Shown here one piece after another: positions 31,197 to 55,063 of a stretch of DNA of 64,000 bases; position 1 is the first letter of the stretch, and each line of letters starts with the position of its first letter. The stretch is from a virus. Its lineage: Duplodnaviria > Caudoviricetes. The stretch spans positions 42,871 through 106,870 of the IMG/VR virus record IMGVR_UViG_3300021403_000004; one strand, written 5' to 3'. A program made the translations under genes and the position numbers. The notes below the pieces were generated by a model, which worked only from the letters and a program-made list of their open reading frames with translations, made no database searches and had not been told where the DNA came from.

Positions 31197-31583
31197 TTAC
31201 AGCCTGGGGCCGAACCGCGATTGCAAGTCCGCCTTGGTCATCTTCGCCGCCGTGTCCGGGTCCATGCCCTGGCTCACCGCGTAGTCGACCCACGACTGCT
31301 TAGGATCTGCCGGAGCTGGCGGGGCCGGCGGCAGCGGCGCGAAGTTCTCCACGGGGCCGTCCGGCGCAGCCTCCTCATCCTCTTCTGGCAGCACGGCAAT
31401 CTGGGCGGGTGACGCCAGCGGTGGCGGGGGTGCCACATAGGGCGGCTCCACTTCCATGGCCATGCCACCGCGGATCAGGTGCTCGCCTTCCCAGTCCTCT
31501 ACCTGGAACGGCGTCCACCCGGGCGGGTACCGGTCACCGTTAGCGCGGGTCCCCGACATGTGCATGGTGGTCTGGATCCACAT
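31197..31583 (-). CDS. Capsid-adjacent small protein with C-terminal SAP/Rho-N-like helix pair
   Basis: [10 protein letters not shown]...A.KMTKADL motif common downstream of actinophage capsid genes. Confidence 0.7.
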
Positions 31584-32530
31584 AACGTCAGCTCTTCCTT
31601 ACGCCGGTCAAGCAGCGCCGCGTACATCTCATCCGGGTAGTACTCGGCAATGAATGCGATCAGGTCTTCTAGCCGCTGCCCCCGCGGCTGGTTCTTGCGG
31701 ACCCACAGTTCCAGGTTCTCCGGGCGGTTGTCACTGCGGATGCCGTTCTTGTGATGCGCGTCCTCAAACGTCCGCAGCAGGCGGCCGATCATCTGCTCCA
31801 TCACCAGCCGGTGCTCCAGGACGGGGCGGCCATTCCGGCGCTCAGCCGACATCCGGTAGCCATCAGTCGTGGTGTAGCCCTGGCTTTTACGTGGCTGCGC
31901 GCCCCACTTGCCGACTGGGTCGCCCGTATGCAGCCAGCGCTGGTAGTGCATCCCGCACCAGCCGCGCCTCGTAGCTTGCCTCTCGCAGCTCTCGACAGCG
32001 CACGTTACCCCTTGCCATTTCGTTACGCGCTCTGACTGAGGAATCAAGGCAGCGCCACCTGCGTCACCGGTCCTGCGCAACCGTGCGTAGTGCGTCTCAC
32101 AGTAGCCAAGAGACCTGACTGGGTTTTCACACCCTTCAACCGAGCAGGCCACTCCCGGGCTGTAATTCCGCGTTGCCTCTGCGCTGCCGTGCCTTTGAAA
32201 CCTCATGTAGTGAAGTCGGCAGTAACCCTTGGCACTGTGCGGTTCATCACAGTCCTCTACCGAGCACACTGCCCCGGGATTCCAGGCGCGAGTTGCTTCT
32301 GGTGTTCCATGCCGCTCTACCCGATTCAGGTGGAGCTTGCAGTAACCGTGCGCATGCGGCTTGCTCGTGCAATCAACTGCCTGGCACTCCAGCGGCTGCC
32401 TGGCGTAGTCCCGCAACGGCGTGAGCGGCTTGCCGTTCATGAGCTGCTTGTAGTGCCGCGTGCAGTACCCGCGGCAGTATCGCAGCCTCGTGCAGCCCTC
32501 GAACGTGCATGGTTCAGTACTCTTAAGCAC
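31499..32530 (-). CDS. HNH homing endonuclease with five N-terminal zinc-finger-like repeats
   Basis: 5x C(S/A)VEGC...GYC..HY.R; EHRLVME..IGR.L...[17 protein letters not shown]. Confidence 0.9.
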
Positions 32531-32560
32531 TGCTGGCCCCTCCCACACAGGGTGCTGGCT

Positions 32561-32592
32561 GAGAGCGGACGGCACGCACGCCGTCCGCTCTC
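32561..32592. terminator. 13-bp perfect hairpin downstream of the capsid gene
   Basis: GAGAGCGGACGGC / GCCGTCCGCTCTC. Confidence 0.6.
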
Positions 32593-32774
32593 CCCATGCT
32601 AGGGCCGGTACATGAACTGGCGCAAGCCTTCGCTCAAGAATGGCGCGTTCTGTTACGAGATCTGGTGCGAAAACGTGAAGACTCGCACATGCGCGCCCAC
32701 GCTCTCGTACCAGTTCCCGAATCACTACAGTTCTCCTTCTGTTGCGTACCGAACGAGTTCTCGAAAAAACTCGA

Positions 32775-34025
32775 TTATGCGCTGGCGCCTTTGTAAACGC
32801 GAATCGCGCCCGTGCGGTCCACCATCGTCCCGTCCCCACGGAGGATAGCCCTGAAGGTTACCAAATCCGTGGAGAAGGCGAAGTCATCGGACCTTTCGAA
32901 CCTGACCCCGCCGACGAGCCGGACGAAGTACTGCGAGAAGTCCCCGAACGCGATCGACAGGGCGTTGGTGGCCAGGGCCGGCATGAACGGGTCGGCGACC
33001 AGCGGCTTGCCGAGCAGCAGGTCCGGGCTGCCGAGCACGGCTGACGGCTCCCAGATCGGGCGCCCCACCGTGTCGGTGATCTTGCGGAACCCGCCGATGG
33101 TCTTGTCCGCGGCCAGCCAGTAGCAGGACCGGCTCTGGCGGTACGGGGCGATGACCGAGTACTCCAGGTCGACCAGGTTGGCGTAGCTGGGCGCGCCGCC
33201 CACGCCGGTCGTGGCGCCGGTAACGCCCACGGAGTTGTTGACGATGCCGTAAGGCTGCCCGGCGCCTGACCCGTTGACCAGGTCGGTGCCGAACGCGTTG
33301 CCCAGCGCGCGGCCGGCCTGCATGGCCAGGTAGCCGAGCAGGTCGACGGCCGTGTCATCGATGAGCTCGCGGGCCACCTGGAGCAGGACGCCGTACTTGT
33401 ACGCCGACAGCGTCTGCATGCTGAAGGCCGGGTCTGAGGACGCGATCGTGCCTGCCTGCGCCGCCGAGGCCGCCGTGGAGTGACCGGTCGTCTTCGGGAC
33501 CTGCAGCGTCTCGCCACCGCCGGTGTTCAGCACCGTGGGACCGCACTGCATGACGCCGGAGACCTCAATGAGGTGCGCGATCAGCATGTCATAAAAATCA
33601 GTCGGCACGATTGAGGACGCGTTCGTGCCGCCGACGCCAGCGGTGGTCAGGATGCGGTAGTTCACCGGGCCGCGAGCCGCCGTGTCGTGCTTGAGCTCCA
33701 TCGCCCGCGGGGTGCCGGGCTCGCCGCGCGCCCACTTGCGCAGCTCGGCATCCATCGCGCCCTGCGCCGGAGCCTTGCGGTCCTGCGGCTTGTCGGCCAG
33801 GTCGTTGAAGGCCTTGTCCGCGTCCGAGGCGCGCTTCTCCTGGTCCAGTACCGCCTTGATCCGGGTGTCCAAGACGGACATTTCTTCCTGCATCGCCTCC
33901 CACCGGCCCTGCTCCTCCGGCGTGAAGCTGCGGTTCTCCTCAGCCGCATCTTCGGCGATCTTCTTTGCTTCGTTCCAGACGTTGAGCCTGCGATCCCTAA
34001 GACGCTTGGCCACTTCGCTTGCCAT
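32775..34025 (-). CDS. HK97-family major capsid protein
   Basis: Coiled-coil delta domain, IVPT, L.AYK...ELI.D, GSG.GQP.G, IAFGDFS.Y..R motifs. Confidence 0.95.
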
Positions 34026-47085: not shown

Positions 47086-47793
47086 GTGCCCCGACTGCTC
47101 GACGGCTGCTGTGGCGCTGGCGGGGCCGCCCGCGGGTACGTGACCGCCGGGTTCGAGGTGCACGGCATCGACAGCAACCCGCGGCTGCGCGAGGATTACC
47201 TGAAATCAGGAGCGGTCAGCTTCACGGTGGCGGACATCATGGACGTGCTCGCTGACGTCGCGTACATGCGGTCCTTCGACGCTATTCACTGCAGCTTCCC
47301 CTGTCAGTTCTACTCCCAGATGTCACGGTGCCGCCCTGGCCTCGCGGCCCAGTACCCTGACCTCATCGGTCCCGGCCGTGAGCTCCTGGAACGGGCGGCC
47401 ATCCCGTACGTCATCGAGAACGTCGGCGCTGCCCGGCCCTGGCTGAAGGATCCCGTCGTGCTCTGCGGCGTGATGTTCGGCCGCCCGGTCTACCGGCACC
47501 GGCTCTTCGAGGCCGGGAACGGGATCACGCTCGCGCAGCCTCCCGCGCCCTGGCAGCAGCGCGCGTCCGCCACGCCATACAACAAAGAGTGCCGGTGGAA
47601 TCACCCGGTTGCCGCCGCGAAAGCCGGGCACTGGAAGCCCGGTTACTACGTCAGCGTCAGCGGGCACGAGCGCAAGGAGCCCGTCCGCGAGGCGATGGCC
47701 ATCGACTGGATGCGCAACCGGGACGACGTCAAGGAAGCGGTACCGCCGTACATGACTCTCGAAATCGGCCGGCAAATCCTGGAGCAGCTGTGA
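47086..47793 (+). CDS. Short DNA cytosine-methyltransferase-like protein
   Basis: LLD.CCGAGGA..GY, H.S.PCQ.YS, YVIENV, RHRLFE, EA.PP..T..IG. Confidence 0.8.
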   Translation: MPRLLDGCCGAGGAARGYVTAGFEVHGIDSNPRLREDYLKSGAVSFTVADIMDVLADVAYMRSFDAIHCSFPCQFYSQMSRCRPGLAAQYPDLIGPGRELLERAAIPYVIENVGAARPWLKDPVVLCGVMFGRPVYRHRLFEAGNGITLAQPPAPWQQRASATPYNKECRWNHPVAAAKAGHWKPGYYVSVSGHERKEPVREAMAIDWMRNRDDVKEAVPPYMTLEIGRQILEQL

Positions 47794-48131
47794 CCTGGAG
47801 CCTTGACTTCGCCCGGAACCCCGAGCGCATCGCGTCACTGACTGAGCTGTACGCGATCACGCCGCTGCGCTTTGACGGGACCACGCCGCACGGCCTGTGC
47901 ACGGCCCCCAGGGACGTGCTGGCCGGCGCGCGCTTCAGGGGCGGCCCCGGGCGGGAAGAAGAGGCCCGGAAAGCGTGGGCCTTCGAGATGAAGGCGTACT
48001 TCCACCGCGGCGTGGGAGAACCGCCGGTCGTCACGTCGTACGACGGTGGCGTGTACACGGTCATCGGCCTCATCACGACAACCCATCCTGGCGACCAGCC
48101 GGATGAGCAGGGCATCGTGTGGTTCACGTGA
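47790..48131 (+). CDS. Hypothetical protein
   Basis: GTGA overlap with upstream stop. Confidence 0.55.
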   Translation: MTWSLDFARNPERIASLTELYAITPLRFDGTTPHGLCTAPRDVLAGARFRGGPGREEEARKAWAFEMKAYFHRGVGEPPVVTSYDGGVYTVIGLITTTHPGDQPDEQGIVWFT

Positions 48132-48229
48132 TTAATGCCAGGGGATGGCCCTCGGGCTGCTTGATGACTTGCGGACAGCACGCGAACTGTCCTGAACACC
48201 GAGAACGTCAGCAGCGGTGAGCACGCAAG

Positions 48230-48298
48230 CACCCCTGCCAGGAGTCGAACCTGGCGGCTGGATTTAGGAAACCCGGCGCCGGGTCCGCCGGCAGGGGC
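48230..48298 (-). tRNA. tRNA-Arg(CCT), reduced D arm
   Basis: GCCCCTG/CAGGGGT acceptor; loop TTCCTAA; GGTTCGACTCC. Confidence 0.8.
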
Positions 48299-48299
48299 C

Positions 48300-48374
48300 T
48301 GGAGTCGCGCCCGGGAGTCGAACCCGGCTTCGCACGGTTTGCAATCGTGCCCCCGCGCCAGCGAGACGCGCGAC
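48300..48374 (-). tRNA. tRNA-Cys(GCA)
   Basis: Loop TTGCAAA; U73 and encoded CCA. Confidence 0.88.
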
Positions 48375-48375
48375 A

Positions 48376-48447
48376 TGGTGTCCCCGTCCGGAGTCGGACC
48401 GGATAGCATTCCTTCGGAGGGAAGGCAGCAGGTCCGCTGCCAGGGAC
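48376..48447 (-). tRNA. tRNA-Arg(CCG)
   Basis: TTCC CTCCGAA GGAA; encoded CCA. Confidence 0.8.
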
Positions 48448-48448
48448 A

Positions 48449-48523
48449 GGAGCCCCTGTCCGATTCGAACGGGTACTCCATTGCCAGCCGCGCGGCCAGC
48501 GGAGACCAATCCAGGGTAGGGGC
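48449..48523 (-). ncRNA. tRNA-like element with a 19-nt anticodon loop
   Basis: GCCCCT/AGGGGC acceptor, TTCGAAT T loop; CTCCG [CTGGC CGCGCGG CTGGC AA] TGGAG. Confidence 0.6.
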
Positions 48524-48533
48524 CTGAACACAG

Positions 48534-48615
48534 TGCGCGACATAGGATTCGAACCTACTCAGCCATAGCACCTGATTTACAGTCAGGTTCCGCTCGCCAT
48601 CTCGGACGATCGCGC
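48534..48615 (-). tRNA. tRNA-Tyr(GTA)
   Basis: CCTGA CTGTAAA TCAGG; variable arm. Confidence 0.9.
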
Positions 48616-48618
48616 AAG

Positions 48619-48718
48619 GAGGGTTTCCGCGGCCATTGAACCCGGCAGGTCACGGCTGGCTGCGGTTCGCGGGGCCGGGAGCCTGCCTGAGTCCGGCGTG
48701 CCGCACGAGGATGCCCTC
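48619..48718 (-). ncRNA. Candidate long hairpin ncRNA
   Basis: Nested pairings GAGGG/CCCTC, GCGGC/GCCGC, GGACTC/GGGTTC, GGCAGG/CCTGCC. Confidence 0.5.
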
Positions 48719-48737
48719 AACCCCGGCTATTCAAGAG

Positions 48738-48811
48738 GGTGATCACCCGGGTTCGATCCGGGACTTTCAGAGTCACAGTCTGACGTGCAGGGCCACTACA
48801 CCATGACCACC
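48738..48811 (-). tRNA. tRNA-His(GTG) with G-1
   Basis: TCAGA CTGTGAC TCTGA; GGTGGTCA/TGATCACC. Confidence 0.9.
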
Positions 48812-48829
48812 ATGAGCGCTTGCGCGCTG

Positions 48830-48902
48830 TACACGGAGTGGGACTCGAACCCACGATACCCTGTTTGTAGGACAGGAGCCTTAGCCGCTAGACGACCCGT
48901 GC
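48830..48902 (-). tRNA. tRNA-Val(TAC), C33
   Basis: CCTGT CCTACAA ACAGG. Confidence 0.88.
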
Positions 48903-48950
48903 ATGAACACTCCGGTCACTTGCTGATGACGCCCCCGGAACCAGGCTCCA

Positions 48951-49025
48951 TGGTACAGTCACCGGGATTCGAACCCGAAATAAGAGATTCGTAGTCTCTC
49001 GTGATATCCGTTTCACCATGACTGC
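48951..49025 (-). tRNA. tRNA-Arg(ACG)
   Basis: AGAGA CTACGAA TCTCT; encoded CCA. Confidence 0.92.
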
Positions 49026-49026
49026 G

Positions 49027-49099
49027 CGCTGATGAAGAGAATCGAACTCTCGGCCCTCCGCTCGACAGGCGGACGCTCTAACCCCTGAGCTACACCAGC
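49027..49099 (-). tRNA. tRNA-Asp(GTC)
   Basis: TCCGC CTGTCGA GCGGA. Confidence 0.9.
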
Positions 49100-49107
49100 T
49101 TGCTAGC

Positions 49108-49701
49108 TTACTCAACGTCTTTATATGTAAGCCTACGTTTTATCATCGATACCGCAGTCCGTGAAATATCATACCGGGCACCGATATCTCGTGTTGTACC
49201 ACTTGCTAGGCGAATTTCACGCACCTGATCTTCCGTCAGGGTGGAATTACCCGACCTTACGCCTGACACCCCTGGATTTGGTATGCCCTGATTTACAGCC
49301 GACAAGCGGTGACGCGCTTCTTCAGACCATATGCGGTCTTTTCCGCCGACACCGTGACTACCGGAGACCGCGTTAAGCAAATTAGTCCCCGGTATCTTGA
49401 ACAGGAGATCTGTCCAATATTCCTCAGCTTTCCAGCGGTCAGCTACGCACACTTCCTGCACTACCAGAAATTGAGGTGGTTCCGGCAACGTCACCAGCCA
49501 CCCGGCCACGTGAGTTGATTTAGCGAAACGGCTCGCCCAGTGCAGCCGAACACGCTCCTGCGCACCTAGTTTAGTGGAGCCAACATACCGGATGGCGTCT
49601 CTATCAAACAGTACGTAAATATCAGCCATGTCTTGTGCATGACGCTTGCGTAGCCACTCTTGCTGATAGGTACGCCGCATCTTAGAATCTGCATAGGGCA
49701 C
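49108..49701 (-). CDS. GIY-YIG homing endonuclease with NUMOD3/HTH tail, inside the tRNA operon
   Basis: IYVL...RYVGST; E..W...LLN; SEEARHRLS; LTEDQVREIR HTH; lower GC; TATACT -10. Confidence 0.8.
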   Translation of the reverse strand: MPYADSKMRRTYQQEWLRKRHAQDMADIYVLFDRDAIRYVGSTKLGAQERVRLHWASRFAKSTHVAGWLVTLPEPPQFLVVQEVCVADRWKAEEYWTDLLFKIPGTNLLNAVSGSHGVGGKDRIWSEEARHRLSAVNQGIPNPGVSGVRSGNSTLTEDQVREIRLASGTTRDIGARYDISRTAVSMIKRRLTYKDVE

Positions 49702-49717
49702 CTACCCAGTATACCTG

Positions 49718-49788
49718 CTCTCCCACCTGGATTCGAACCAGAATTAAATGGTTAACAGCCATCCGTTCTGCCGTTGAACTATAGGAGA
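49718..49788 (-). tRNA. tRNA-Asn(GTT)
   Basis: GATGG CTGTTAA CCATT. Confidence 0.92.
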
Positions 49789-49825
49789 TTAGTGCCCGAT
49801 TATAGCCTCGGAGCCAGGCTGGCAG

Positions 49826-49899
49826 TGGCGGAGGCGTGATTCGAACACGCGATCTTCAGGTTATGAGCCTGACGAGGTACCTAGCTCCTCTACTCCGCA
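49826..49899 (-). tRNA. tRNA-Met(CAT), initiator-like
   Basis: TCAGG CTCATAA CCTGA; 1:72 mismatch. Confidence 0.88.
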
Positions 49900-49900
49900 G

Positions 49901-49971
49901 TCGTCCTACAGGGATTCGAACCCTGTTCTCAGCCTTGAAAGGGCTGGGGCCTACCTATAGCCGATAGGACG
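49901..49971 (-). tRNA. tRNA-Glu(TTC)
   Basis: CAGCC CTTTCAA GGCTG. Confidence 0.9.
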
Positions 49972-49975
49972 CGAG

Positions 49976-50048
49976 CGCTCGCACCGGGGCTTGAACCCGG
50001 GATCTCCTGCTTGAGGGGCAGGCGACTTCACCGCTTGTCCACGCGAGC
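49976..50048 (-). tRNA. tRNA-Glu(CTC), C33
   Basis: CCTGC CCCTCAA GCAGG. Confidence 0.88.
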
Positions 50049-50052
50049 TCAG

Positions 50053-50122
50053 CACAGCGCCAGGGAGTCGAACCCTGTTTCCGCGGCTTAGAAGACCGCT
50101 GCACGTATCCGCCGTGCGCTGC
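50053..50122 (-). tRNA. tRNA-Arg(TCT), reduced D arm
   Basis: GCGGT CTTCTAA GCCGC. Confidence 0.85.
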
Positions 50123-50123
50123 A

Positions 50124-50198
50124 TGGTGCCTCCGTGGGGACTCGAACCCCAGTACGCGGGGTAAAAGCCCGCTGTCCTTGCCGCTAAACGACAGAGGC
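50124..50198 (-). tRNA. tRNA-Lys(TTT)
   Basis: GCGGG CTTTTAC CCCGC; encoded CCA. Confidence 0.9.
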
Positions 50199-50203
50199 GC
50201 GAG

Positions 50204-50274
50204 TCGGGATACCGGGTGCCGCCCCCGGGTGACTGGCTTATGAGACCAGCGGTTTACTGTTAGCCTATATCCCA
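50204..50274 (-). tRNA. tRNA-CAT (elongator Met or Ile2), atypical T loop
   Basis: CTGGT CTCATAA GCCAG; T loop GGCGGCA. Confidence 0.75.
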
Positions 50275-50275
50275 G

Positions 50276-50347
50276 TGGGATCGCAGGGAATCGAACCCTG
50301 ATCACGTCCTTATAAGAGGCGCATCCTCACCATTAAACGACGATCCA
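50276..50347 (-). tRNA. tRNA-Ile(TAT)
   Basis: Loop CTTATAA; GGTTCGATTCC. Confidence 0.85.
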
Positions 50348-50348
50348 G

Positions 50349-50425
50349 TCGTACGGGAAGGACTTGAACCTTCGTGTCACCAGTTACCCTTTCGGCTCCT
50401 TATCAGGGAGAGGGGATACCGTACG
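50349..50425 (-). tRNA. Rewired tRNA-Ile(GAT) with the D-loop 3' of the anticodon arm
   Basis: CGTACGG TA TCCCCT CTCC-CTGATAA-GGAG CCGAA AGGG TAACTGGTGACAC GAAGG-TTCAAGT-CCTTC CCGTACG A. Confidence 0.75.
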
Positions 50426-50429
50426 CACG

Positions 50430-50513
50430 AGGAAGAACGACGAGTCGAACGCCACGGGTCACCCCGCGATCCGCTTTCAAGGCGGTCCCAGGCACCGGCC
50501 TGGATGATCTTCC
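50430..50513 (-). tRNA. tRNA-Ser(TGA), 8/4-type fold
   Basis: CCGC CTTGAAA GCGG; long variable arm; 4-bp T stem. Confidence 0.85.
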
Positions 50514-50520
50514 GGAAGAA

Positions 50521-50611
50521 CTCAGTGCCCCACCCGGGGAGCGCCCGGCCACGGGTACCTAGGATCACGCGGAATTGAACCGCGCCGCCAGGACTTGAAC
50601 CTGTCACTGAG
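50521..50611 (-). ncRNA. Double-T-loop tRNA-sized RNA without an anticodon arm
   Basis: CTCAGTG/CACTGAG closing stem; CAGG-TTCAAGT-CCTG and GCGCGG-TTCAATT-CCGCGT in tandem. Confidence 0.7.
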
Positions 50612-50615
50612 AAAG

Positions 50616-50700
50616 CAGAAGGCGGAGGGCACGATCCCCAGGGCTGTCACGCCCCCGGCTCGCTAGCAACGAGTGCCTGGCCCCGCCAGGTTCGCCTTCC
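50616..50700 (-). tRNA. tRNA-Ser(GCT), 8/4-type fold
   Basis: CTCG TTGCTAG CGAG; GGAAGGCG/CGCCTTCT acceptor. Confidence 0.82.
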
Positions 50701-50701
50701 A

Positions 50702-50778
50702 TGGTACCCCAGGCGGGATTCGAACCCGCAGCATCGCCGGATCTGAACCGGAGTGGTCGGCCAGTTGCCTACCGGGGC
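50702..50778 (-). tRNA. tRNA-Leu(CAG), short variable region
   Basis: CCGG TTCAGAT CCGG; encoded CCA. Confidence 0.88.
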
Positions 50779-50779
50779 A

Positions 50780-50855
50780 TGGAGTAGATGACGGGACTCG
50801 AACCCGCAACCATTACCTTGGCAAGGTAATACGCTACCAATTGCGCCACATCTAC
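50780..50855 (-). tRNA. tRNA-Gly(GCC)
   Basis: TTACC TTGCCAA GGTAA; U73, CCA. Confidence 0.93.
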
Positions 50856-50859
50856 GCAG

Positions 50860-50930
50860 AGCGAGCGACGGGAATCGGACCCGCGCCTCGACCTTGGGAA
50901 GGTCACGTGCTGCCATTGCACCACGCTCGC
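50860..50930 (-). tRNA. tRNA-Gly(CCC)
   Basis: TGACC TTCCCAA GGTCG. Confidence 0.9.
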
Positions 50931-50932
50931 AT

Positions 50933-51025
50933 GACAGGAACGGGCAGCTAATCCGCCGGGATTCCGGAACTCCCGATTGCGCCGCTTCCGCCGGTAAGAG
51001 CCTTTGCGCTAGCGCTTTTCCTGCC
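50933..51025 (-). ncRNA. Candidate structured ncRNA
   Basis: GGCAGGAA/TTCCTGTC closing stem, GCTAG/TTAGC, CGGGA/TCCCG hairpin. Confidence 0.5.
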
Positions 51026-51026
51026 G

Positions 51027-51100
51027 AGCCTGACGCCGGATTCGAACCGGCGACCCTCGCCTTACCACGGCGATGCTCTCACCACTGGAGCTAGTCAGGC
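51027..51100 (-). tRNA. tRNA-Thr(GGT)
   Basis: TCGCC GTGGTAA GGCGA. Confidence 0.9.
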
Positions 51101-51102
51101 AG

Positions 51103-51170
51103 AGCCGCGATCCGGTGCCGGCCCGGACCTGCTTCCTTACAAGGGAAGCGTCACAGCCGTGTGCCGCGGC
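51103..51170 (-). tRNA. tRNA-Thr(TGT), minimal D arm and atypical T loop
   Basis: CTTCC CTTGTAA GGAAG; T loop GCCGGCA. Confidence 0.75.
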
Positions 51171-51174
51171 ATTG

Positions 51175-51247
51175 CTGTCCGCCCAGGACTCGAACCTGGA
51201 ATCGCCGGGACCAAAACCCGGAGAGCTGCCTGTTGCCCTAGCGGACA
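51175..51247 (-). tRNA. tRNA-Gln(TTG)
   Basis: CCGGG TTTTGGT CCCGG. Confidence 0.88.
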
Positions 51248-51252
51248 CTGCT

Positions 51253-51306
51253 GCTGCCATTATCACGTTGACAGGTCTCCCTGCTTTCGGGGTCGTTCTA
51301 GGCAGC
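51253..51306 (-). ncRNA. Candidate small ncRNA
   Basis: GCTGCC/GGCAGC closing stem and CAGG-GAGA-CCTG GNRA hairpin. Confidence 0.4.
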
Positions 51307-51322
51307 TTCATGACTGTCCCCG

Positions 51323-51403
51323 TGCGCGAGGCGGGAATCGAACCCGCAAGACCGAGGTCGCTGCCTCCTCAAGGCAGTGCGTTTACCGTTTCACCACTCA
51401 CGC
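51323..51403 (-). tRNA. tRNA-Leu(GAG)
   Basis: CTGCC TTGAGGA GGCAG; variable arm. Confidence 0.9.
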
Positions 51404-51407
51404 AAGG

Positions 51408-51478
51408 CTTCCCTTCAAGGACTCGAACCTCAATCGCCAGAGTCAGATTCTGGCATCCTGCCATTAGACGAAAGGGAA
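51408..51478 (-). tRNA. tRNA-Gln(CTG)
   Basis: CCAGA ATCTGAC TCTGG. Confidence 0.9.
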
Positions 51479-51484
51479 TTAAAG

Positions 51485-51558
51485 TGCGCAGCCCGGGATT
51501 CGAACCCGGAGCATCACTGGTTTTGGGCCAGCGTGGTCGGCCAGTTGCCTAGCCGCGC
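51485..51558 (-). tRNA. tRNA-Leu(CAA), C33, short variable region
   Basis: GCTGG CCCAAAA CCAGT; D arm identical to Leu(CAG). Confidence 0.85.
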
Positions 51559-51562
51559 AGGA

Positions 51563-51637
51563 GCAGCAGTTTCATGCTCCCGGTACTTCAGGACTGATCG
51601 GGCCCTGGTTGCCGGGACGAGCAGTGCCCCCGCTGCC
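51563..51637 (-). ncRNA. Candidate hairpin ncRNA with a loop-E-like internal loop
   Basis: GCAGCGG/CTGCTGC, TCCCGG/CCGGGA, CAGGGC/GTCCTG; internal loop CAAC/AAGTA. Confidence 0.5.
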
Positions 51638-51650
51638 GGGCATGCCTGCG

Positions 51651-51724
51651 TGCGCCGCGAGGGACTTGAACCCCCAACTCCCGACTTAAGAGGACGGTAC
51701 TCTAACCAGTTGAGTTAGCGGCAC
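51651..51724 (-). tRNA. tRNA-Lys(CTT)
   Basis: Loop CTCTTAA; canonical D and T arms. Confidence 0.9.
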
Positions 51725-51830
51725 GTAGTTGTTGCACATATTCACGTCTTGCATCTTTACAGTCATCACATTTTGGCGGCCCACAAAGGGCTGCGGTCCC
51801 CTTGCAGTCCCGCAGTGGCCTCGCGAGCAG

Positions 51831-51899
51831 AGCCTGACCTCAGAATCGGACTGAGCGATCTTCCCGTACGAAGGGACGACGTGACCCAGCACGTCAGGC
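51831..51899 (-). tRNA. tRNA-Thr(CGT), minimal D arm
   Basis: TCCC TTCGTAC GGGA; GCCTGAC/GTCAGGC. Confidence 0.78.
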
Positions 51900-51950
51900 A
51901 TGAAGCTCGTCCCGGTTGGGCGCGCGATGGCTTATTGAGGACGAGCTCCG

Positions 51951-52021
51951 AAGGGCAGGCGGGAATCGAACCCGCATCTTCTGCTTGGAAGGCAGAGGGC
52001 CTGCCATTAACTGACTGCCCC
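51951..52021 (-). tRNA. tRNA-Gly(TCC)
   Basis: TCTGC CTTCCAA GCAGA. Confidence 0.9.
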
Positions 52022-52030
52022 GTAAAAAGC

Positions 52031-52107
52031 GACCGGACTGCACCCGCAAAACGGTGCGGAAGCCAGGACTGCTTGCAGTTGCGACTTATCTCCTTTGCAG
52101 TCCAGCC
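52031..52107 (-). ncRNA. Candidate structured ncRNA
   Basis: 12-bp closing stem GGCTGGACTGCA/TGCAGTCCGGTC with internal stems. Confidence 0.55.
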
Positions 52108-52109
52108 GG

Positions 52110-52183
52110 TGCCTGCTCCCTGGATCGAACAGGGGGCCTCTGCATTTTCAGTGCAACGCTCATTCCGACTGAGCTAAGCAGGC
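52110..52183 (-). tRNA. tRNA-Phe(GAA)
   Basis: TTGCA CTGAAAA TGCAG. Confidence 0.9.
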
Positions 52184-52263
52184 ATGCGGGCGCTGTTTTT
52201 CCGCGGCGCCTAGAAGGCCGCGCCCGGTCTTGCGTCCCTCCCTCCGGAGGGAACCGCTTTCCC

Positions 52264-52406
52264 GCTGGTGTGCTGTTACGCCAGGGCAGTGCGCCGTTTG
52301 CCTTCCCGCCCGCCAGCGTCTGCACTGTCACCGCGCAGGCCCTCAGACAAGAAGCGGCATGACCGCGCTCTTTCAAGGATGGCTGCCTTTAAGCCCACCT
52401 TCCAGC
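52264..52406 (-). ncRNA. 23S rRNA H43/H44 (L11-binding, GTPase-associated centre) mimic RNA with an 86-nt insertion
   Basis: GCTGG AAGGTGGGCTTAAAGGCAGCCATCCTTGAAAGAG [86 nt] GCGTAACAGCACA CCAGC aligns to 23S nt ~1051-1108 with compensatory changes. Confidence 0.82.
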
Positions 52407-52410
52407 CGGG

Positions 52411-52483
52411 TCGGGTACCCCTGAGTCGAACAGGGTGCTTCCTGCTCCCAAAGCAGGCGGGTTAACCGTCTCCCTCGTACCCG
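52411..52483 (-). tRNA. tRNA-Pro(TGG)
   Basis: CCTGC TTTGGGA GCAGG. Confidence 0.88.
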
Positions 52484-52521
52484 TCATGCCTTAGCCAGGC
52501 CTTTCAGCCCATGAAGCCGAG

Positions 52522-52593
52522 TCGGGCACCCCTGAATCGAACAGGGTCTCTCCTGCATCCCGAGCAGGCAGATTGCCATCTTCCCCGTACCCG
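52522..52593 (-). tRNA. tRNA-Pro(GGG), C33
   Basis: CCTGC TCGGGAT GCAGG. Confidence 0.85.
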
Positions 52594-52597
52594 AAAG

Positions 52598-52669
52598 TCA
52601 GCCCCCCGGGAGTCGAACCCGGTTTCTCCTCGATCCGAACGAGGCAGATTACCGTCTTCCTCGAAGCTG
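52598..52669 (-). tRNA. tRNA-Pro(CGG)
   Basis: CCTCG TTCGGAT CGAGG. Confidence 0.88.
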
Positions 52670-52675
52670 GCGACG

Positions 52676-52747
52676 TGGAGACTGAGGGAATCGAACCCTC
52701 TGCGTCAACGCTTGCAAAGCGCGACCGCTGCCTTAGCTGTAATCCCC
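52676..52747 (-). tRNA. tRNA-Ala(TGC)
   Basis: Loop TTTGCAA; G3:U70. Confidence 0.85.
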
Positions 52748-52752
52748 GTGCG

Positions 52753-52825
52753 TGGAACCTGCGAGGCTTGAACTCGCGACCTCGTGCGTGCCACGCACGT
52801 GCTCTCCCAGCTGAGCTAAGGCCCC
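52753..52825 (-). tRNA. tRNA-Ala(GGC)
   Basis: CGTGC GTGGCAC GCACG; G3:U70. Confidence 0.92.
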
Positions 52826-52892
52826 ATCTGCCCAGGCGGGCCCGGTCGAGCAGGCGCATGCGCGCCCTCCCGCGGTCCCTGGGCAATGCTCA

Positions 52893-52932
52893 CCACTGTT
52901 GAGTTCTCAAGTAAGCCCCCGTCATGCGGGGA
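52893..52932 (-). promoter_or_regulatory. rrn-type boxB hairpin plus boxA antitermination signal
   Basis: CCCCG-CATGA-CGGGG followed by CTTGAGAACTCAACAG, as in actinobacterial rRNA leaders. Confidence 0.75.
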
Positions 52933-52934
52933 AG

Positions 52935-53006
52935 CTGGCCGCCGAGGAATCGAACCCCGACCAAGAGGTTTGGAAGCTCTTGTGCTTGCCGTTACACCAG
53001 CAGCCA
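52935..53006 (-). tRNA. tRNA-Trp(CCA)
   Basis: Loop TTCCAAA; canonical D and T arms. Confidence 0.88.
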
Positions 53007-53030
53007 CTGTCGTTGTGCCTTGTGCTCTTT

Positions 53031-53059
53031 ACACTAGCTCAGGCCTGCCCCTGTGGCAA
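53031..53059 (-). promoter_or_regulatory. Housekeeping-sigma promoter of the tRNA operon
   Basis: TTGCCA-17 nt-TAGTGT, about 25 nt before the first tRNA. Confidence 0.7.
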
Positions 53060-53116
53060 GCTCTTTTTAGACTGTATCAGACTTCCCTCTGCTTGTCCAC
53101 CCGGCAGGAGCGCGGT

Positions 53117-53146
53117 GGGGCCCTCGCCTACCCTGGCGAGGGCCCC
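53117..53146. terminator. 12-bp perfect hairpin after the Y-like RNAs
   Basis: GGGGCCCTCGCC-TACCCT-GGCGAGGGCCCC. Confidence 0.55.
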
Positions 53147-53147
53147 G

Positions 53148-53250
53148 GTTCGCGTTGCCATGTGTTTGCCGTTACACCACAGCGCATTCGCGCTGGAGGG
53201 AGTCGAACCCTCATCCTCGCACTATTGAGGTGCACGCTGGTTTCCGCTGG
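53148..53250 (-). ncRNA. YrlA/Y-RNA-like permuted tRNA domain (copy 1)
   Basis: Order T arm GAGGG-TTCGACT-CCCTC, loop-closed acceptor CAGCGC-GAAT-GCGCTG, D arm GTG-TAACGGCAAA-CAC; ends approximate. Confidence 0.72.
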
Positions 53251-53279
53251 CACGCTGCCCTGCGGCTCTTGCTAGGTGA

Positions 53280-53480
53280 GTGACGGCGCCCTGCCATTAG
53301 GCCATGTCCCGGTGTACTGGACGGGACAGCGGGAATCGAACCCGCACGTCCGGCACGCAAGTGCGCAATGCGATCGTGCCCGGAGGGGAAGAAGCTGAAG
53401 CTGCAGCAATACGACGAAGACGATGCTGGCCAGCCACGCGATGGGCCGGGCGGACAAGGAAGCTGAAGCTGCGCTGTGTC
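53280..53480 (-). ncRNA. YrlA/Y-RNA-like permuted tRNA domain (copy 2) with a long 5' extension
   Basis: GCGGG-TTCGATT-CCCGC, TGTCCCG-loop-CGGGACA, GCC-TAATGGCAG-GGC; two GCAGCTTCAGCTTC repeats upstream; TGATACGCT promoter at 53485-53493; ends approximate. Confidence 0.7.
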
Positions 53481-53490
53481 CGTTAGCGTA

Positions 53491-53892
53491 TCACGGTTTC
53501 ACACCGGACTGGCACTGTCCGGTGCCCGCCTCCGGGACCGCATGCTGGACGTACTGGACGAGTGCCTCCCGGAGCACGTCACTGAACGACATCCCGTGCG
53601 CCCTCGCATGAGCGCGCACTGCCTCCACGAGCAGCGAGTCAAGCCGGGCAGAGACTACCTGGTCAAGCTTGCGTGACGCGCCGCGCTGCCCTGAGCCTTC
53701 CATGACCATCCCGGAAGCTGGCCTGCCTTCCTGCGCAAGCGCGTGCCCGCGATCAGGGCTGACCCACACACGATCAACGACCAGGACTGACCCGGCCGCG
53801 CGCAGCTTGTCGTCCACCATCTCCGCCACCTCCGTCATTGACAGGTGCTCCGGCGCCAGCAAGCGCACGTTCACGAGGACGTACTGGCTCAT
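53491..53892 (-). CDS. Ribbon-helix-helix (CopG-like) regulator
   Basis: VVSARL...VRAHARAHGMSFSDVLREALVQYV. Confidence 0.7.
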   Translation of the reverse strand: MSQYVLVNVRLLAPEHLSMTEVAEMVDDKLRAAGSVLVVDRVWVSPDRGHALAQEGRPASGMVMEGSGQRGASRKLDQVVSARLDSLLVEAVRAHARAHGMSFSDVLREALVQYVQHAVPEAGTGQCQSGVKP

Positions 53893-54239
53893 GATGCCTG
53901 CCTTCCCTTCCGGAACTGGCGCCAGCGCCTGCGCGCCTGGTACAGCGGCCAGATCGTGTACCTGGCCACCACGTGCGTCATCCGGTCGCTCAGCAGGTGC
54001 CGCCCGTGCCCGATGTGGATGTGCGGCGCGTGCCCGCGGCCATCCTCCCACCGCGATCCCCACGTGCACGCATACGGCGCCAGGGTGTCCACGCGGCGCT
54101 GCCGGGCCCAGAGGCGGATGATGGCCAGCCACGCCCGGCGCCTGCTTGCGTACACCCGCTTGCGGCCGTGCATCGCCGCCCAGTCACGCGGCCTCGTCCG
54201 GCGGTAGCGGCGCGGCGGCCGACGGCGCCTGCGCGTCAC
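53889..54239 (-). CDS. Arg-rich hypothetical protein
   Basis: K..Y.SR..A...PY.C...H.HIGH. Confidence 0.55.
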   Translation of the reverse strand: MTRRRRRPPRRYRRTRPRDWAAMHGRKRVYASRRRAWLAIIRLWARQRRVDTLAPYACTWGSRWEDGRGHAPHIHIGHGRHLLSDRMTHVVARYTIWPLYQARRRWRQFRKGRQAS

Positions 54240-54682
54240 AGCAAGCGCACGCCATCATGATGACGCACTGCCGGGCCTGCAAGGAACCTGTAGGACAAGG
54301 CATCAGTGACCCGTGCCGCAAAGGCTTCACTGCACAGCTCGCTCACCTCACGGGGAGTAGCCCACAAGAACGCCGTGACCTCATCATTGAGCGTGAGCGT
54401 CCCGCCTGCCGGCGCGCACCGGAAGACCAGGGTCACCACCGTGCGCTGCATGTTCTTGTAAACGCCCGCCAGCACGCGCAGCCGGACTTCCAGGCCTGTC
54501 TCCTCCCTGACTTCACGCCGCAGGCCCGTGATAAGGTCCTCGTCGCGTTCCAGGCCGCCACCGGGCGGTTCCCAGTGCCCGTTATCATGCCGCCGGGTAA
54601 GGAGCACCCGGTCCTGGTCATCCACGATCACGGCGATGACGCCCACCCGGTGGCAGTCCGCGTGCTCCCATGCTGCGCTCAT
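54236..54682 (-). CDS. NUDIX hydrolase
   Basis: PGGGLE..E.....RREVREETGL Nudix box. Confidence 0.92.
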   Translation of the reverse strand: MSAAWEHADCHRVGVIAVIVDDQDRVLLTRRHDNGHWEPPGGGLERDEDLITGLRREVREETGLEVRLRVLAGVYKNMQRTVVTLVFRCAPAGGTLTLNDEVTAFLWATPREVSELCSEAFAARVTDALSYRFLAGPAVRHHDGVRLL

Positions 54683-54736
54683 CCCCGCCGCCTCTTGCCA
54701 TGCCTGCCCCGCTTGCAGCCGTGCATCGCCGTCCAG

Positions 54737-55063
54737 TCACGCAGCCTCGTCCGGTGGCACCGGCGCAGCGGGCGGCGGCGCTGGCGTGCGCGCATCAGTA
54801 ACAGCCTTCCTCGCATCGGGCTCTTCCGGCGCGTACCCCGCACACAGGGCGTGCACGGCAACGGCCGCACCCGTCGTGACCCCGTCAGCCTTGCGGTCCT
54901 CCGGGGCGATCCCGGCCAGGACCAGCACCAGCACCCGGTCCAGGAGGGGCTCCTCGCACACCGGGCAGTCCTGGCCGGCCATCGGGTGGCTGGCCCTGAT
55001 GGTGAACCGGCGGCCAGTGGCCAGCAGGGGCTTGGCCGTCGCGAAGACGCGCACCGGGATCAC
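54737..55063 (-). CDS. Zinc-binding hypothetical protein
   Basis: CPVC...H..C. Confidence 0.55.
   Translation of the reverse strand: MIPVRVFATAKPLLATGRRFTIRASHPMAGQDCPVCEEPLLDRVLVLVLAGIAPEDRKADGVTTGAAVAVHALCAGYAPEEPDARKAVTDARTPAPPPAAPVPPDEAA

What the first reader, a model, noticed from the sequence alone, without database searches (positions are those of the whole stretch)
48230..53490. Phage RNA operon mixing a complete tRNA set with rRNA-, tRNA- and Y-RNA-mimic RNAs: a candidate translation-shield system
Seen: a co-oriented - strand array with a TTGCCA/TAGTGT promoter and rrn-type boxB/boxA carries 38 tRNAs (all 20 amino acids). At tRNA-like spacing it also carries structured non-tRNA units: a 23S H43/H44 mimic, a double-T-loop RNA, several closed-stem RNAs and pseudoknots, with two Y-like RNAs just upstream. 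Established: RNase P and 3' processing of flanking tRNAs releases intervening RNAs, and phage tRNAs offset host anticodon nucleases. Inference: the operon mass-produces RNA decoys or mimics of the translation machinery. Standard tRNA annotation would dismiss these units as spacers.
Basis: partly seen in the sequence, partly recalled or inferred. Interest (0 to 1): 0.9.

Follow-up and report, generated by a model that had tools for sequence, protein, structure and literature searches.

The report
Phage tRNA operon carrying ribosome-mimic RNAs
An uncultured soil phage of actinobacteria packs about 38 tRNA genes into one array, and RNAs that are not tRNAs sit between and beside them, including a copy of the ribosome site that binds protein uL11 and a double tRNA look-alike, which suggests the phage makes imitations of translation parts whose purpose is still untested.

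Summary
The minus strand at 48229-53006 carries a co-oriented array of 29 (ARAGORN default) to about 38 (relaxed settings plus synteny) tRNA genes for all 20 amino acids. An exact copy of the actinobacterial rRNA-leader motif follows the first tRNA.

Of the non-tRNA units:
- **GAC mimic, 52264-52406.** This is a real, split, self-closed mimic of the 23S GTPase-associated centre (GAC). It belongs to a large phage RNA family that I also found in cultured phages and in IMG/VR. I found no description of it in print. This scan had already noted the family in other phages.
- **'Y-like RNAs'.** These are one unit of about 320 nt with two permuted tRNA-like modules. Two relatives keep it through compensatory changes. 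It has its own promoter-like box and terminator hairpin, and in the relatives it lies downstream of the array.
- **His-Tyr unit.** This 121-nt unit is more conserved than any tRNA (92-93% against a tRNA median of 74%).
- **Pre-Phe unit.** It shows compensatory pairs.
- **Other units.** Five, including the double-T unit, have no counterpart in relatives.

Contigs from four soil RNA libraries lie on the array. The decoy or 'shield' function is inference only.

The parts
48229..53006 (-). Co-oriented tRNA array, from tRNA-Trp(cca) to tRNA-Arg(cct). It holds 29 to about 38 tRNA genes covering all 20 amino acids, and the gene order is shared with six related arrays.
53031..53099 (-). Two overlapping candidate promoters upstream of tRNA-Trp: TGGACA-17-TACAGT at 53099-53071 and TTGCCA-17-TAGTGT at 53059-53031. 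These are consensus matches only.
   Evidence: the count is not above shuffles
52826..52933 (-). Leader between tRNA-Trp and tRNA-Ala. A small hairpin is followed by the rrn-leader motif TTGAGAACTCAACAG (52910-52896) and a long GC hairpin. It is 82-88% identical to L021 and L169.
52368..52406 (-). GAC mimic, 5' half: 5' strand of the closing helix, H43 hairpin and junction. It starts 3 nt after tRNA-Pro(tgg).
52282..52367 (-). GAC mimic, 86-nt inserted domain between the junction and the H44 hairpin. Its first hairpin covaries among the window, L021 and L169 (read by eye).
52264..52281 (-). GAC mimic, 3' half: H44 hairpin (GCGUAACAGC) and the 3' strand of the closing helix.
52184..52262 (-). 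Pre-Phe unit: a hairpin, an A-rich linker and a 7-bp stem that encloses a second hairpin and an A-rich bulge. It is found directly 5' of tRNA-Phe in the window, L021, L169 and L013.
51900..51949 (-). 50-nt hairpin with a 12-bp stem between Gly(tcc) and Thr(cgt). Folding z-score is -4.5, and 41 nt are 85% identical to the same slot in L012.
51787..51829 (-). Conserved 5' hairpin of the unit between Thr(cgt) and Lys(ctt), 89% identical to L169. L021 and L169 share the matching stretch at 83%.
50349..50425 (-). Non-canonical tRNA-Ile(GAU) with no D arm in the normal place. A homologue in L011 carries a UAU anticodon, and all three stems show compensatory changes.
50521..50611 (-). Double-T unit: a 7-bp closing stem around two T-arm-like hairpins. 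No homologue was found in any related array, and the folding z-score is -0.12.
49108..49701 (-). 197-aa ORF in the 617-nt gap between tRNA-Asn and tRNA-Asp, in a stretch of lower G+C. No family was found for it.
48616..48736 (-). His-Tyr unit: a 121-nt long, irregular hairpin that is 92-93% identical in three lineages. This is the best-conserved element of the array.
53117..53490 (-). Separate RNA unit upstream of the array.
- A -10-like box TGATACGCT ends at 53485.
- Module 1 lies at 53345-53288: T arm, closed 7-bp acceptor-like hairpin with UCCA in its loop, then D arm.
- Module 2 lies at 53212-53162.
- An adapter-joined fragment end sits at 53156.
- A GC hairpin at 53146-53117 has no U tract.

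Best explanation
This locus is the translation-RNA island of an uncultured actinophage.

**Transcription (inferred).** Host RNA polymerase reads a long minus-strand array of about 38 tRNA genes. An rRNA-leader (nut-like) motif placed just after the first tRNA probably recruits the host's Nus antitermination factors. That would let the polymerase run through several kilobases of highly structured RNA.

**Processing (inferred).** RNase P and the tRNA 3'-end enzymes cut out the tRNAs, and in doing so they release the RNAs that lie between them.

**Passenger RNAs (shown from sequence).** Some passengers are real, selected RNAs:
- a split, self-closed copy of the 23S rRNA GTPase-associated centre, where uL11, thiopeptides and the translational GTPases bind;
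- a near-invariant 121-nt hairpin between tRNA-His and tRNA-Tyr;
- a structured unit of about 79 nt in front of tRNA-Phe.

Other gaps hold strongly divergent tRNAs or lineage-specific spacer hairpins.

**Neighbouring RNA (shown from sequence).** Next to the array is a separately promoted RNA of about 320 nt. It carries two permuted tRNA-like modules built like the tRNA-like domain of the bacterial Y RNA YrlA.

**Function (inferred).** The tRNAs supply or replace host tRNAs during infection. The GAC copy acts away from the ribosome by binding uL11 or another factor that recognises that site. The tRNA-like modules engage proteins that recognise the tRNA elbow.
For: **Array and synteny.**
- 29 tRNAs by default ARAGORN and 37 at relaxed settings.
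- The same tRNA order in L011-L014, L021, L022 and L169.

**Leader motif.**
- It occurs once in the record and at the same place in L011 and L021.
- 43 of the 80 have the 16S 5' end 85-223 nt downstream, 33 end too soon to tell, and 4 have none.

**GAC mimic.**
- Rfam LSU_rRNA_bacteria scores 18.9 bits, E 4.2e-4, over model positions 1090-1174 in a 225-nt scan.
- Both halves sit around an 86-nt insert.
- In 11 phage copies plus one real 23S, closing-helix pairs 1046-1054/1105-1113 show 2-5 pair types each, pair 1058-1080 shows 3 types, and the H43 and H44 cores are invariant.
- At one closing-helix position the window, L021 and L169 carry U-A, A-U and C-G.
- Copies lie in unannotated DNA of nine cultured phage genomes.
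- 39 of 80 fetched IMG/VR loci carry both halves.
- A co-oriented tRNA ends within 50 nt upstream in 13 of those 39.

**Conservation between the window and L021/L169.**
- tRNAs: median 0.74, range 0.55-0.92.
- His-Tyr unit: 0.92-0.93.
- GAC mimic: 0.83-0.86.
- Leader: 0.82-0.88.

**Pre-Phe unit.** In the 7-bp stem, 5 of 7 pairs differ on both sides between the window and L013. I read this from the sequences printed.

**Y-like unit.**
- The YrlA model matches positions 30-81 at 21.6 bits, E 0.031.
- A consensus fold of three lineages gives 87 pairs, 19 of them with changes on both sides, including 5 of 7 in the closed acceptor-like hairpin.

**RNA libraries.**
- Contigs identical to the window from four soil metatranscriptome runs lie on 48289-53478 and bridge tRNAs and passenger units. 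Examples are X5 50653-52909, X4 51888-52938, X6 51841-52967 and X8 52162-52620.
- One contig carries adapter letters joined at 53156.

**Precedent.** T4 makes two small RNAs of unknown role from its tRNA region (passage in PMC3014915; annotation).
Against: **Missing tests.**
- No result tests binding, processing or any effect on translation or defence.
- RNA-library contigs may come from carried-over DNA, and they cannot show ends, strand or level (tool warning).

**Weak signals.**
- The promoters are consensus matches no more frequent than in shuffles.
- Folding energies of the GAC unit (z -0.49), the His-Tyr unit (z -0.39) and most spacers are not unusual.
- The His-Tyr unit shows no covariation, because it hardly varies. 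Its conservation could therefore act at the DNA level.

**Patchy distribution.**
- Five window units have no counterpart in the closest relatives.
- L014 has almost no spacers, so passenger RNAs are not essential to such arrays.
- The GAC mimic is absent from the held parts of L011-L014.
- 15 of 39 IMG/VR family members have no tRNA in the held locus, so tRNA-linked release is not general.

**YrlA membership.**
- The YrlA score is far below the gathering score of 69.
- No TROVE/Ro60 gene is in the record, which is 69% complete.

**This copy of the mimic.** The window's H43 loop differs from the rRNA consensus at two positions, and the junction differs at one.
Confidence: 0.55

Rival explanations
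1. This is an ordinary phage tRNA array. The material between the tRNAs is debris: decaying tRNA duplicates, a captured piece of host 23S rDNA and neutral spacers, with no function of their own.
For: - Five units have no homologue even in the closest relatives, where the tRNAs abut.
- Several tRNAs are so divergent that Rfam does not see them.
- Most folding z-scores are ordinary.
- L014 has almost no spacers.
Against: - The closing helix of the GAC copy, which replaces H42, covaries in 11 phage copies while the rRNA-like cores stay fixed. The same split design recurs in phages with 29-69% G+C.
- The His-Tyr unit is more conserved than the tRNAs beside it, which are 59-61% identical.
- The pre-Phe and Y-like units keep their pairs through changes on both sides.
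- The GAC and pre-Phe modules stay intact while tRNA-Pro(tgg) changes place between them.
Confidence: 0.12
2. The non-tRNA units act in cis for the operon itself. They would be processing sites for RNase III or RNase E, folding insulators between tRNAs, internal promoters or attenuators, and antitermination signals. They would not be free RNAs acting on the host.
For: - Many units are closed by long end-to-end stems (52022-52107, 51900-51949, 50931-51025), as are the processing stems of rRNA operons (recalled).
- A terminator-like site lies in the Phe-Gly unit.
- The Met-Asn spacer holds TATAAT, and -10-like boxes sit at the same place in L012 and L013 (read by eye).
- The leader carries a nut-like motif.
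Against: - A cis role does not explain a faithful copy of the uL11 site.
- That RNA also occurs without nearby tRNAs in 15 of 39 IMG/VR loci.
- The Y-like unit has moved to the other end of the array in relatives.
Confidence: 0.2
3. The near-invariant His-Tyr element, and perhaps others, work as DNA: for example a replication, packaging or recombination site, or a homing-endonuclease target. Alternatively the element spread recently among these phages.
For: - It is 92-93% identical while the flanking tRNAs are 59-61% identical.
- Variation is confined to about 15 apical bases, and no covariation can be read.
- It has no Rfam match.
Against: - It sits in the same slot, with the same strand and boundaries, in three lineages.
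- It is covered by a contig of an RNA library (X4 48289-48816).
- A one-base insertion in L021 and L169 rules out a shared reading frame.
Confidence: 0.13

Closest known systems
GTPase-associated centre of bacterial 23S rRNA (top of H42, H43, H44; the uL11/thiostrepton site; E. coli numbering 1051-1108 is recalled)
   Same: - The H43 stem and loop, the junction AAAGAG, the H44 hairpin, and the G/A·A mismatch at the base are all kept.
- The Rfam LSU model aligns to it.
- The table compares it against the real 23S in L027.
   Different: - It is not part of an rRNA gene.
- H42 is replaced by a short self-closing helix that covaries.
- An 86-nt domain is inserted before H44.
- Two H43-loop positions and one junction position differ from the consensus.
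- It scores 18.9 bits against a gathering score of 50.
Phage T4 tRNA cluster with the stable RNAs rnaC and rnaD (species 1 and 2) and the homing endonuclease segB
   Same: - Non-tRNA stable RNAs are encoded head to tail with tRNAs on one strand.
- An ORF is inserted in the cluster.
- The roles of the T4 RNAs are unknown (PMC3014915 passage).
   Different: - T4 has 8 tRNAs and 2 passenger RNAs.
- Read by eye, neither T4 RNA shows the GAC motif. rnaC ends in a T arm.
- The window's ORF matches no endonuclease family.
YrlA, the tRNA-like bacterial Y RNA (Rfam RF02553; Chen et al. 2014, PMC4201824, passages read)
   Same: - The order is T arm, then a closed stem in the place of the acceptor stem, then D arm.
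- Like M. smegmatis YrlA, module 1 has a 7-bp acceptor-like stem. In M. smegmatis that stem is cut by RNase P and gains CCA.
- The loops in the window and L169 already read UCCA.
   Different: - It scores 21.6 bits against 69.
- The Ro-binding strand was not recognised. By eye I did not find the GNCGAAN0-1G motif at a conserved place.
- No TROVE gene is in the record.
- It has two modules in one RNA of about 320 nt.
Actinobacterial rRNA operon leader (nut-like boxB-boxA-boxC region; NusA binds boxC of the M. tuberculosis rrn leader, PMC2724277 passage)
   Same: - A 15-nt exact match to the motif that lies a median of 180 nt upstream of 16S in actinobacteria.
- A small hairpin precedes it.
   Different: - It follows the first tRNA instead of preceding all genes.
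- The tools do not tell whether this stretch is the boxA or the boxC of the published nomenclature. The papers that define them were not held.

Membership tests
Phage split GAC-mimic RNA family (no published name found; defined here by its parts) | H43-like hairpin with an rRNA-type loop and the flanking junction | tested here: met
   - Rfam LSU local match, E 4.2e-4.
- 2 mismatches to the 18-nt core.
- Stem pairs kept.
Phage split GAC-mimic RNA family (no published name found; defined here by its parts) | H44 hairpin and the 3' strand of the closing helix, placed after an inserted domain | tested here: met
   GCGTAACAGC lies 86 nt after the junction. The layout is the same in 9 of the 10 other phage copies (inserts of 86-223 nt); L025 is unsplit.
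Phage split GAC-mimic RNA family (no published name found; defined here by its parts) | Self-closing helix in place of H42, kept by covariation | tested here: met
   - 2-5 pair types per position over 1046-1054/1105-1113 in 12 rows.
- U-A, A-U and C-G at one position in the window, L021 and L169.
Phage split GAC-mimic RNA family (no published name found; defined here by its parts) | Binds uL11 or another GAC ligand away from the ribosome | not testable with these tools
   The complex predictor takes proteins only, and no binding data exist.
True 23S rRNA gene or gene fragment (RF02541) | Score at or above the gathering score, with contiguous rRNA beyond H42-H44 | tested here: not met
   - 18.9 bits against 50, covering only model positions 1090-1174.
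- tRNAs flank it on both sides.
YrlA / bacterial Y RNA (RF02553) | Rfam gathering score of 69 bits | tested here: not met
   21.6 bits over model positions 30-81 only.
YrlA / bacterial Y RNA (RF02553) | tRNA-like domain: T arm, closed acceptor-like stem, D arm | tested here: met
   - Alignment to the model.
- 5 of 7 acceptor-like pairs are compensatory in three lineages.
- A second module has the same order.
YrlA / bacterial Y RNA (RF02553) | Encoded next to a Ro60/Rsr (TROVE) gene and bound by it | tested here: not met
   No PF05731 match in the 106,870-base record, which is 69% complete. The control search found it in Deinococcus. Binding is not testable.
rrn-type antitermination leader | Conserved leader motif of the host clade's rRNA operons, on the transcribed strand near the start of the operon | tested here: met
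rrn-type antitermination leader | Recruits Nus factors and suppresses termination | not testable with these tools
   Inference from the E. coli and M. tuberculosis systems (PMC2724277 passages).
tRNA (RF00005), for the gap units in conserved tRNA slots | Cloverleaf recognised by tRNA models | tested here: inconclusive
   - Thr(cgt), Thr(tgt), Ser(gct) and Arg(ccg) are found only by relaxed ARAGORN and by synteny. For the first three, Rfam gave no match at E<=1.
- 50349-50425 scores 28.8 bits against a cut-off of 29.

The most novel reading that the evidence does not exclude
The phage fields a coordinated set of RNA imitations of the translation apparatus. The set comprises a free uL11/GTPase-centre copy, tRNA-elbow mimics that cannot be charged, re-wired tRNAs and a near-invariant 121-nt RNA. 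They are made in bulk from, or beside, an antiterminated tRNA operon and freed by the host's own tRNA-processing enzymes. Their role would be to soak up host factors or defence nucleases that attack or throttle translation during infection.
Probability: 0.2. Interest if true: 0.9.

Novelty: new variant of a known kind. Interest (0 to 1): 0.7.

Why it matters
Phage tRNA clusters are usually annotated as tRNAs plus spacers. In this locus at least four of the 'spacers' are selected RNAs, and one of them copies a universally conserved ribosomal site.

**If the GAC copy binds uL11, a translational GTPase, RelA or a thiopeptide.** Phages would then have a previously unrecognised way to tune or protect translation. 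The family's presence in cultured Pseudomonas, Aeromonas, Xanthomonas, Cronobacter and Pectobacterium phages makes this directly testable.

**The rrn-leader motif.** It suggests that phages borrow the host's rRNA antitermination system for tRNA operons.

**The permuted tRNA-like RNA.** It extends YrlA-type architecture to a phage that has no visible Ro60 gene.

**For annotation.** The case shows that default tRNA finders miss about a quarter of the tRNA-like genes in such arrays.

Tried and rejected
**Searches that found nothing or could not decide.**
- Megablast of the array against cultured phages gave no match.
- The portal protein finds only distant actinophages, at 35% identity or less.
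- Folding-energy z-scores were unhelpful at this G+C.
- MAFFT and RNAalifold on the pre-Phe unit misaligned the L013 stem. I therefore read the pairs from the printed sequences.
- His-Tyr unit:
  - no Rfam family;
  - only scattered short hits in five actinobacterial genomes;
  - no other IMG/VR holder besides G001 and G004;
  - the metagenome scan gave one further lineage, L169/L170, plus chance or unrelated hits.
- The Y-like T-arm pattern hit ordinary tRNAs elsewhere.
- Small Rfam scans of the other units found only tRNAs.
- The ORF at 49108-49701 has a GIY...YIG-like spacing by eye (recalled motif), but Pfam, PHROGs and PDB give nothing. One weak tblastn hit was found.
- The Pd_22F hit and the L023, L026 and L027 hits are real or rRNA-like 23S stretches, not mimics.
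- T4 rnaC and rnaD are not GAC-like.

**RNA libraries.**
- The flanks 47403-48004 and 53724-54927 have no contig in any of the four runs, and 47102-47402 next to none.
- The Y-like region has the highest per-contig depth in X4 and X5.
- The tool says that holes and contig depths prove nothing, so I do not use either point as evidence.

**Literature.**
- Searches found no description of a phage GAC mimic.
- The main-text passages of PMC10690425 that I read say that no rRNA prediction overlapped its candidates. Its supplementary tables could not be seen, and they may list this family.

Full report
**What the window is.** The window is bases 42871-106870 of a 106,870-base IMG/VR virus record that CheckV rates 69% complete. 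It has 57-74% G+C. It encodes a terminase, a portal, a prohead protease and a capsid protein. Its portal is at most 35% identical to those of Mycobacterium and Gordonia phages. Runs that hold the stretch are soil metagenomes and metatranscriptomes. The rrn-leader motif described below points to an actinobacterial host.

**The array.**
- ARAGORN at default finds 29 tRNA genes on the minus strand between 48229 and 53006.
- Rfam adds three at or above its cut-offs and two just below.
- Local ARAGORN at -ps90 gives 37, and -ps80 adds Thr(tgt).
- All 37 T-arm-like hairpins from 53345 to 48254 are on the minus strand.
- A terminase search brought in related contigs. Six of them, plus one metagenome contig, carry arrays with the same tRNA order: L011, L012, L013, L014, L021 (G001), L022 (G004) and L169.
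- By synteny, the 73-nt gap at 51101-51173 is the Thr(tgt) slot and 50348-50430 is the Ile(gat) slot.
- Thr(cgt), Ser(gct) and Arg(ccg) also sit where relatives have normal tRNAs. For Thr(cgt), Thr(tgt) and Ser(gct), Rfam gave no tRNA match even at E<=1 in small scans.

**Start of the operon.**
- The consensus scan prefers TGGACA-17-TACAGT at 53099-53071. It finds no more sites than in shuffles.
- The rrn-type box is solid. TTGAGAACTCAACAG (52910-52896) occurs once in the whole record, 23 nt after tRNA-Trp. It is at the same place in L011 (no mismatch) and L021 (two mismatches).
- In 43 of the 80 the 16S 5' end lies 85-223 nt downstream (median 180). 33 loci end too early to tell, and 4 have none.
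- Passages of PMC2724277 state that such leader boxes bind Nus factors and that boxC of the M. tuberculosis rrn leader binds NusA.
- I could not read the defining papers, so I do not assign the motif to boxA or boxC.

**The GAC mimic.**
- Scanned alone, the 225-nt gap between tRNA-Pro(tgg) and tRNA-Phe matches LSU_rRNA_bacteria positions 1090-1174 (18.9 bits, E 4.2e-4).
- The scan's earlier notes describe a split mimic whose two ends rebuild the site. Prompted by them, I found that the H44 hairpin and the 3' strand of the closing helix lie 86 nt after the junction. The element spans 52406-52264.
- A blastn of L021's copy against cultured phages hit unannotated, co-oriented intergenic DNA of UNO-G1W1, pf16, 4_4572, XacN1, Milchi, Astolliot, XaC1, GAP32 and CBB. 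Several of these hits lie inside or beside tRNA clusters.
- A low-G+C IMG/VR phage (L025) has an unsplit minimal copy just ahead of tRNA-Met.
- In an anchored table of 11 phage copies and one real 23S, the closing helix shows 2-5 pair types per position and pair 1058-1080 shows three. The H43 and H44 cores and the purine·A mismatch at the base never change.
Of 80 loci fetched, 39 also carry the H43 core upstream, at 29-69% G+C.
- 13 of those 39 have a co-oriented tRNA ending within 50 nt upstream, 18 have a tRNA within 300 nt, and 15 have no tRNA in the held locus.
- Within the lineage, the mimic is in the window, L021 and L169 but not in the held parts of L011-L014.
- In L021, tRNA-Pro(tgg) lies between the mimic and the pre-Phe unit. 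In the window and L169 it lies before both. The two are therefore separate modules.

**Other conserved units.** Identities between the window and L021/L169:

| Element | Identity |
|---|---|
| tRNAs | median 0.74, range 0.55-0.92 |
| His-Tyr unit (48616-48736) | 0.92-0.93 |
| Leader | 0.82-0.88 |
| GAC mimic | 0.83-0.86 |
| Pre-Phe unit | 0.68-0.71 |

- The flanking His and Tyr tRNAs are only 0.59 and 0.61 identical.
- The His-Tyr unit folds into one long irregular hairpin. All variation sits in about 15 apical bases, so covariation cannot be read. It has no Rfam family and no consistent match in five actinobacterial genomes.
- The pre-Phe unit recurs in L013, whose terminase is 49% identical. 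There, 5 of the 7 pairs of its main stem are changed on both sides (sequences; read by eye).
- A 50-nt hairpin at 51900-51949 (z -4.5) is shared with L012. The first 43 nt of the Thr-Lys unit are shared with L169, and L021 and L169 share the matching stretch.
- The odd tRNA-Ile at 50349-50425 has a homologue in L011 with a UAU anticodon. Its core is 84% identical over 56 nt, and the acceptor, anticodon and T stems all differ by compensatory changes.

**Units without support.** The following have no counterpart in any related array:

| Unit | Coordinates |
|---|---|
| Phe-Gly | 52022-52107 |
| Lys-Leu | 51559-51649 |
| Leu-Gln | 51248-51321 |
| Thr-Gly | 50931-51025 |
| Double-T | 50521-50611 |

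All except Phe-Gly (z -2.55) have ordinary folding energies. They may be young, lineage-specific RNAs, cis elements or debris.

**The Y-like RNA.**
- Upstream of the array promoter lies a separate unit. It begins with a -10-like box directly after the stop codon of the RHH-protein gene. Two modules follow, each ordered T arm, closed acceptor-like hairpin, D arm. A GC hairpin closes the unit.
- Rfam's YrlA model aligns positions 30-81 to module 1 (21.6 bits, E 0.031 in a 401-nt scan, gathering score 69).
- In L021 and L169 the homologous unit lies downstream of the array. There it has a similar -10-like box and a terminator with a U tract.
- A consensus fold of the three gives 87 pairs, 19 with changes on both sides, including 5 of 7 in the acceptor-like hairpin of module 1.
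- The loop of that hairpin reads UCCA in the window and L169.
- Chen et al. 2014 (PMC4201824, passages read) describe this same domain order in YrlA. They report that M. smegmatis YrlA, with a 7-bp acceptor-like stem, is cut by RNase P and receives CCA. They also warn that tRNA dimers can mimic the pattern. The compensatory hairpin argues against a mere dimer here.
- No TROVE gene is in the record.

**RNA libraries.**
- Four soil metatranscriptome runs hold contigs identical to the window over 48289-53478.
- Long contigs bridge tRNAs and passenger units, including the GAC mimic.
- One contig ends at 53156 joined to adapter letters.
- The tool warns that such libraries can contain DNA and that contigs show neither ends nor level. 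This is presence in RNA libraries, not proof of transcription.

**Verdict.**
- The step from anatomy to a 'translation shield' is inference.
- The best-supported reading is a host-style, probably antiterminated tRNA operon that also delivers a few selected passenger RNAs. One of them belongs to a widespread and apparently undescribed phage family that copies the uL11/GTPase centre. Next to the operon lies a YrlA-like double tRNA mimic.
- The scan had already noted the GAC family in other phages. What this window adds:
  - an actinophage member with two close relatives;
  - the combination with an rrn-leader motif;
  - a near-invariant unknown RNA;
  - presence in RNA libraries.

Noticed in passing
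window 40216-43167 (-): The terminase large subunit ORF is 983 aa. In relatives the same residues (1-982) are matched by only about 1,700 bases, so the window's gene seems to hold an insertion of about 400 aa. An intein is one possibility.
   Followed up: no
window 49108-49701 (-): A 197-aa ORF sits inside the tRNA array in a lower-G+C stretch and matches no Pfam, PHROG or PDB family. T4 has the GIY-YIG endonuclease segB at a comparable place in its tRNA cluster. L012 has a 1,646-nt insert in the Asp-Arg(acg) gap, the slot next to the window's Asn-Asp gap.
   Followed up: partly
window 50349-50425 (-) and L011 6703-6778: A tRNA-Ile lacks the D arm in its normal place. A D-loop-like stretch follows the anticodon arm instead. 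The design is kept in a second phage lineage with another anticodon (GAU in the window, UAU in L011) and with compensatory changes in all three stems.
   Followed up: partly
L012 17423-17623 (-) and L013 7521-7720 (-): The two more distant arrays share a unit of about 200 nt between tRNA-Ala(tgc) and tRNA-Pro(cgg), 77% identical over 198 nt. It is absent from the window and was not identified.
   Followed up: no
L025 1590-1660: A low-G+C, 190-kb IMG/VR phage carries an unsplit, minimal copy of the GAC domain ending about 15 nt ahead of tRNA-Met. Its H44 stem is changed on both sides relative to 23S.
   Followed up: partly
L168, L172, L173 (metagenome contigs): A CRISPR array of an organism with about 48% G+C has a spacer sharing 20 consecutive bases with the His-Tyr unit. 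The spacer's flanks do not match, so this is probably chance.
   Followed up: no
window 48229-53006 (-): Many tRNA genes abut with 0-5 nt between them, and most do not encode CCA. Maturation must therefore rely on precise endonucleolytic cuts and on CCA addition.
   Followed up: no
window 1704-1776 (-): A lone tRNA-Ile(gat) lies about 46 kb away from the array.
   Followed up: no
window 31499-32839 (-): A 446-aa HNH endonuclease ORF sits among the head genes, next to the capsid gene.
   Followed up: no
L032 (Paenibacillus phage Pd_22F, MZ092003, near the record end): The record holds a stretch that reads like genuine 23S rRNA well beyond H42-H44. It is probably host DNA in the assembly and not a mimic.
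   Followed up: no
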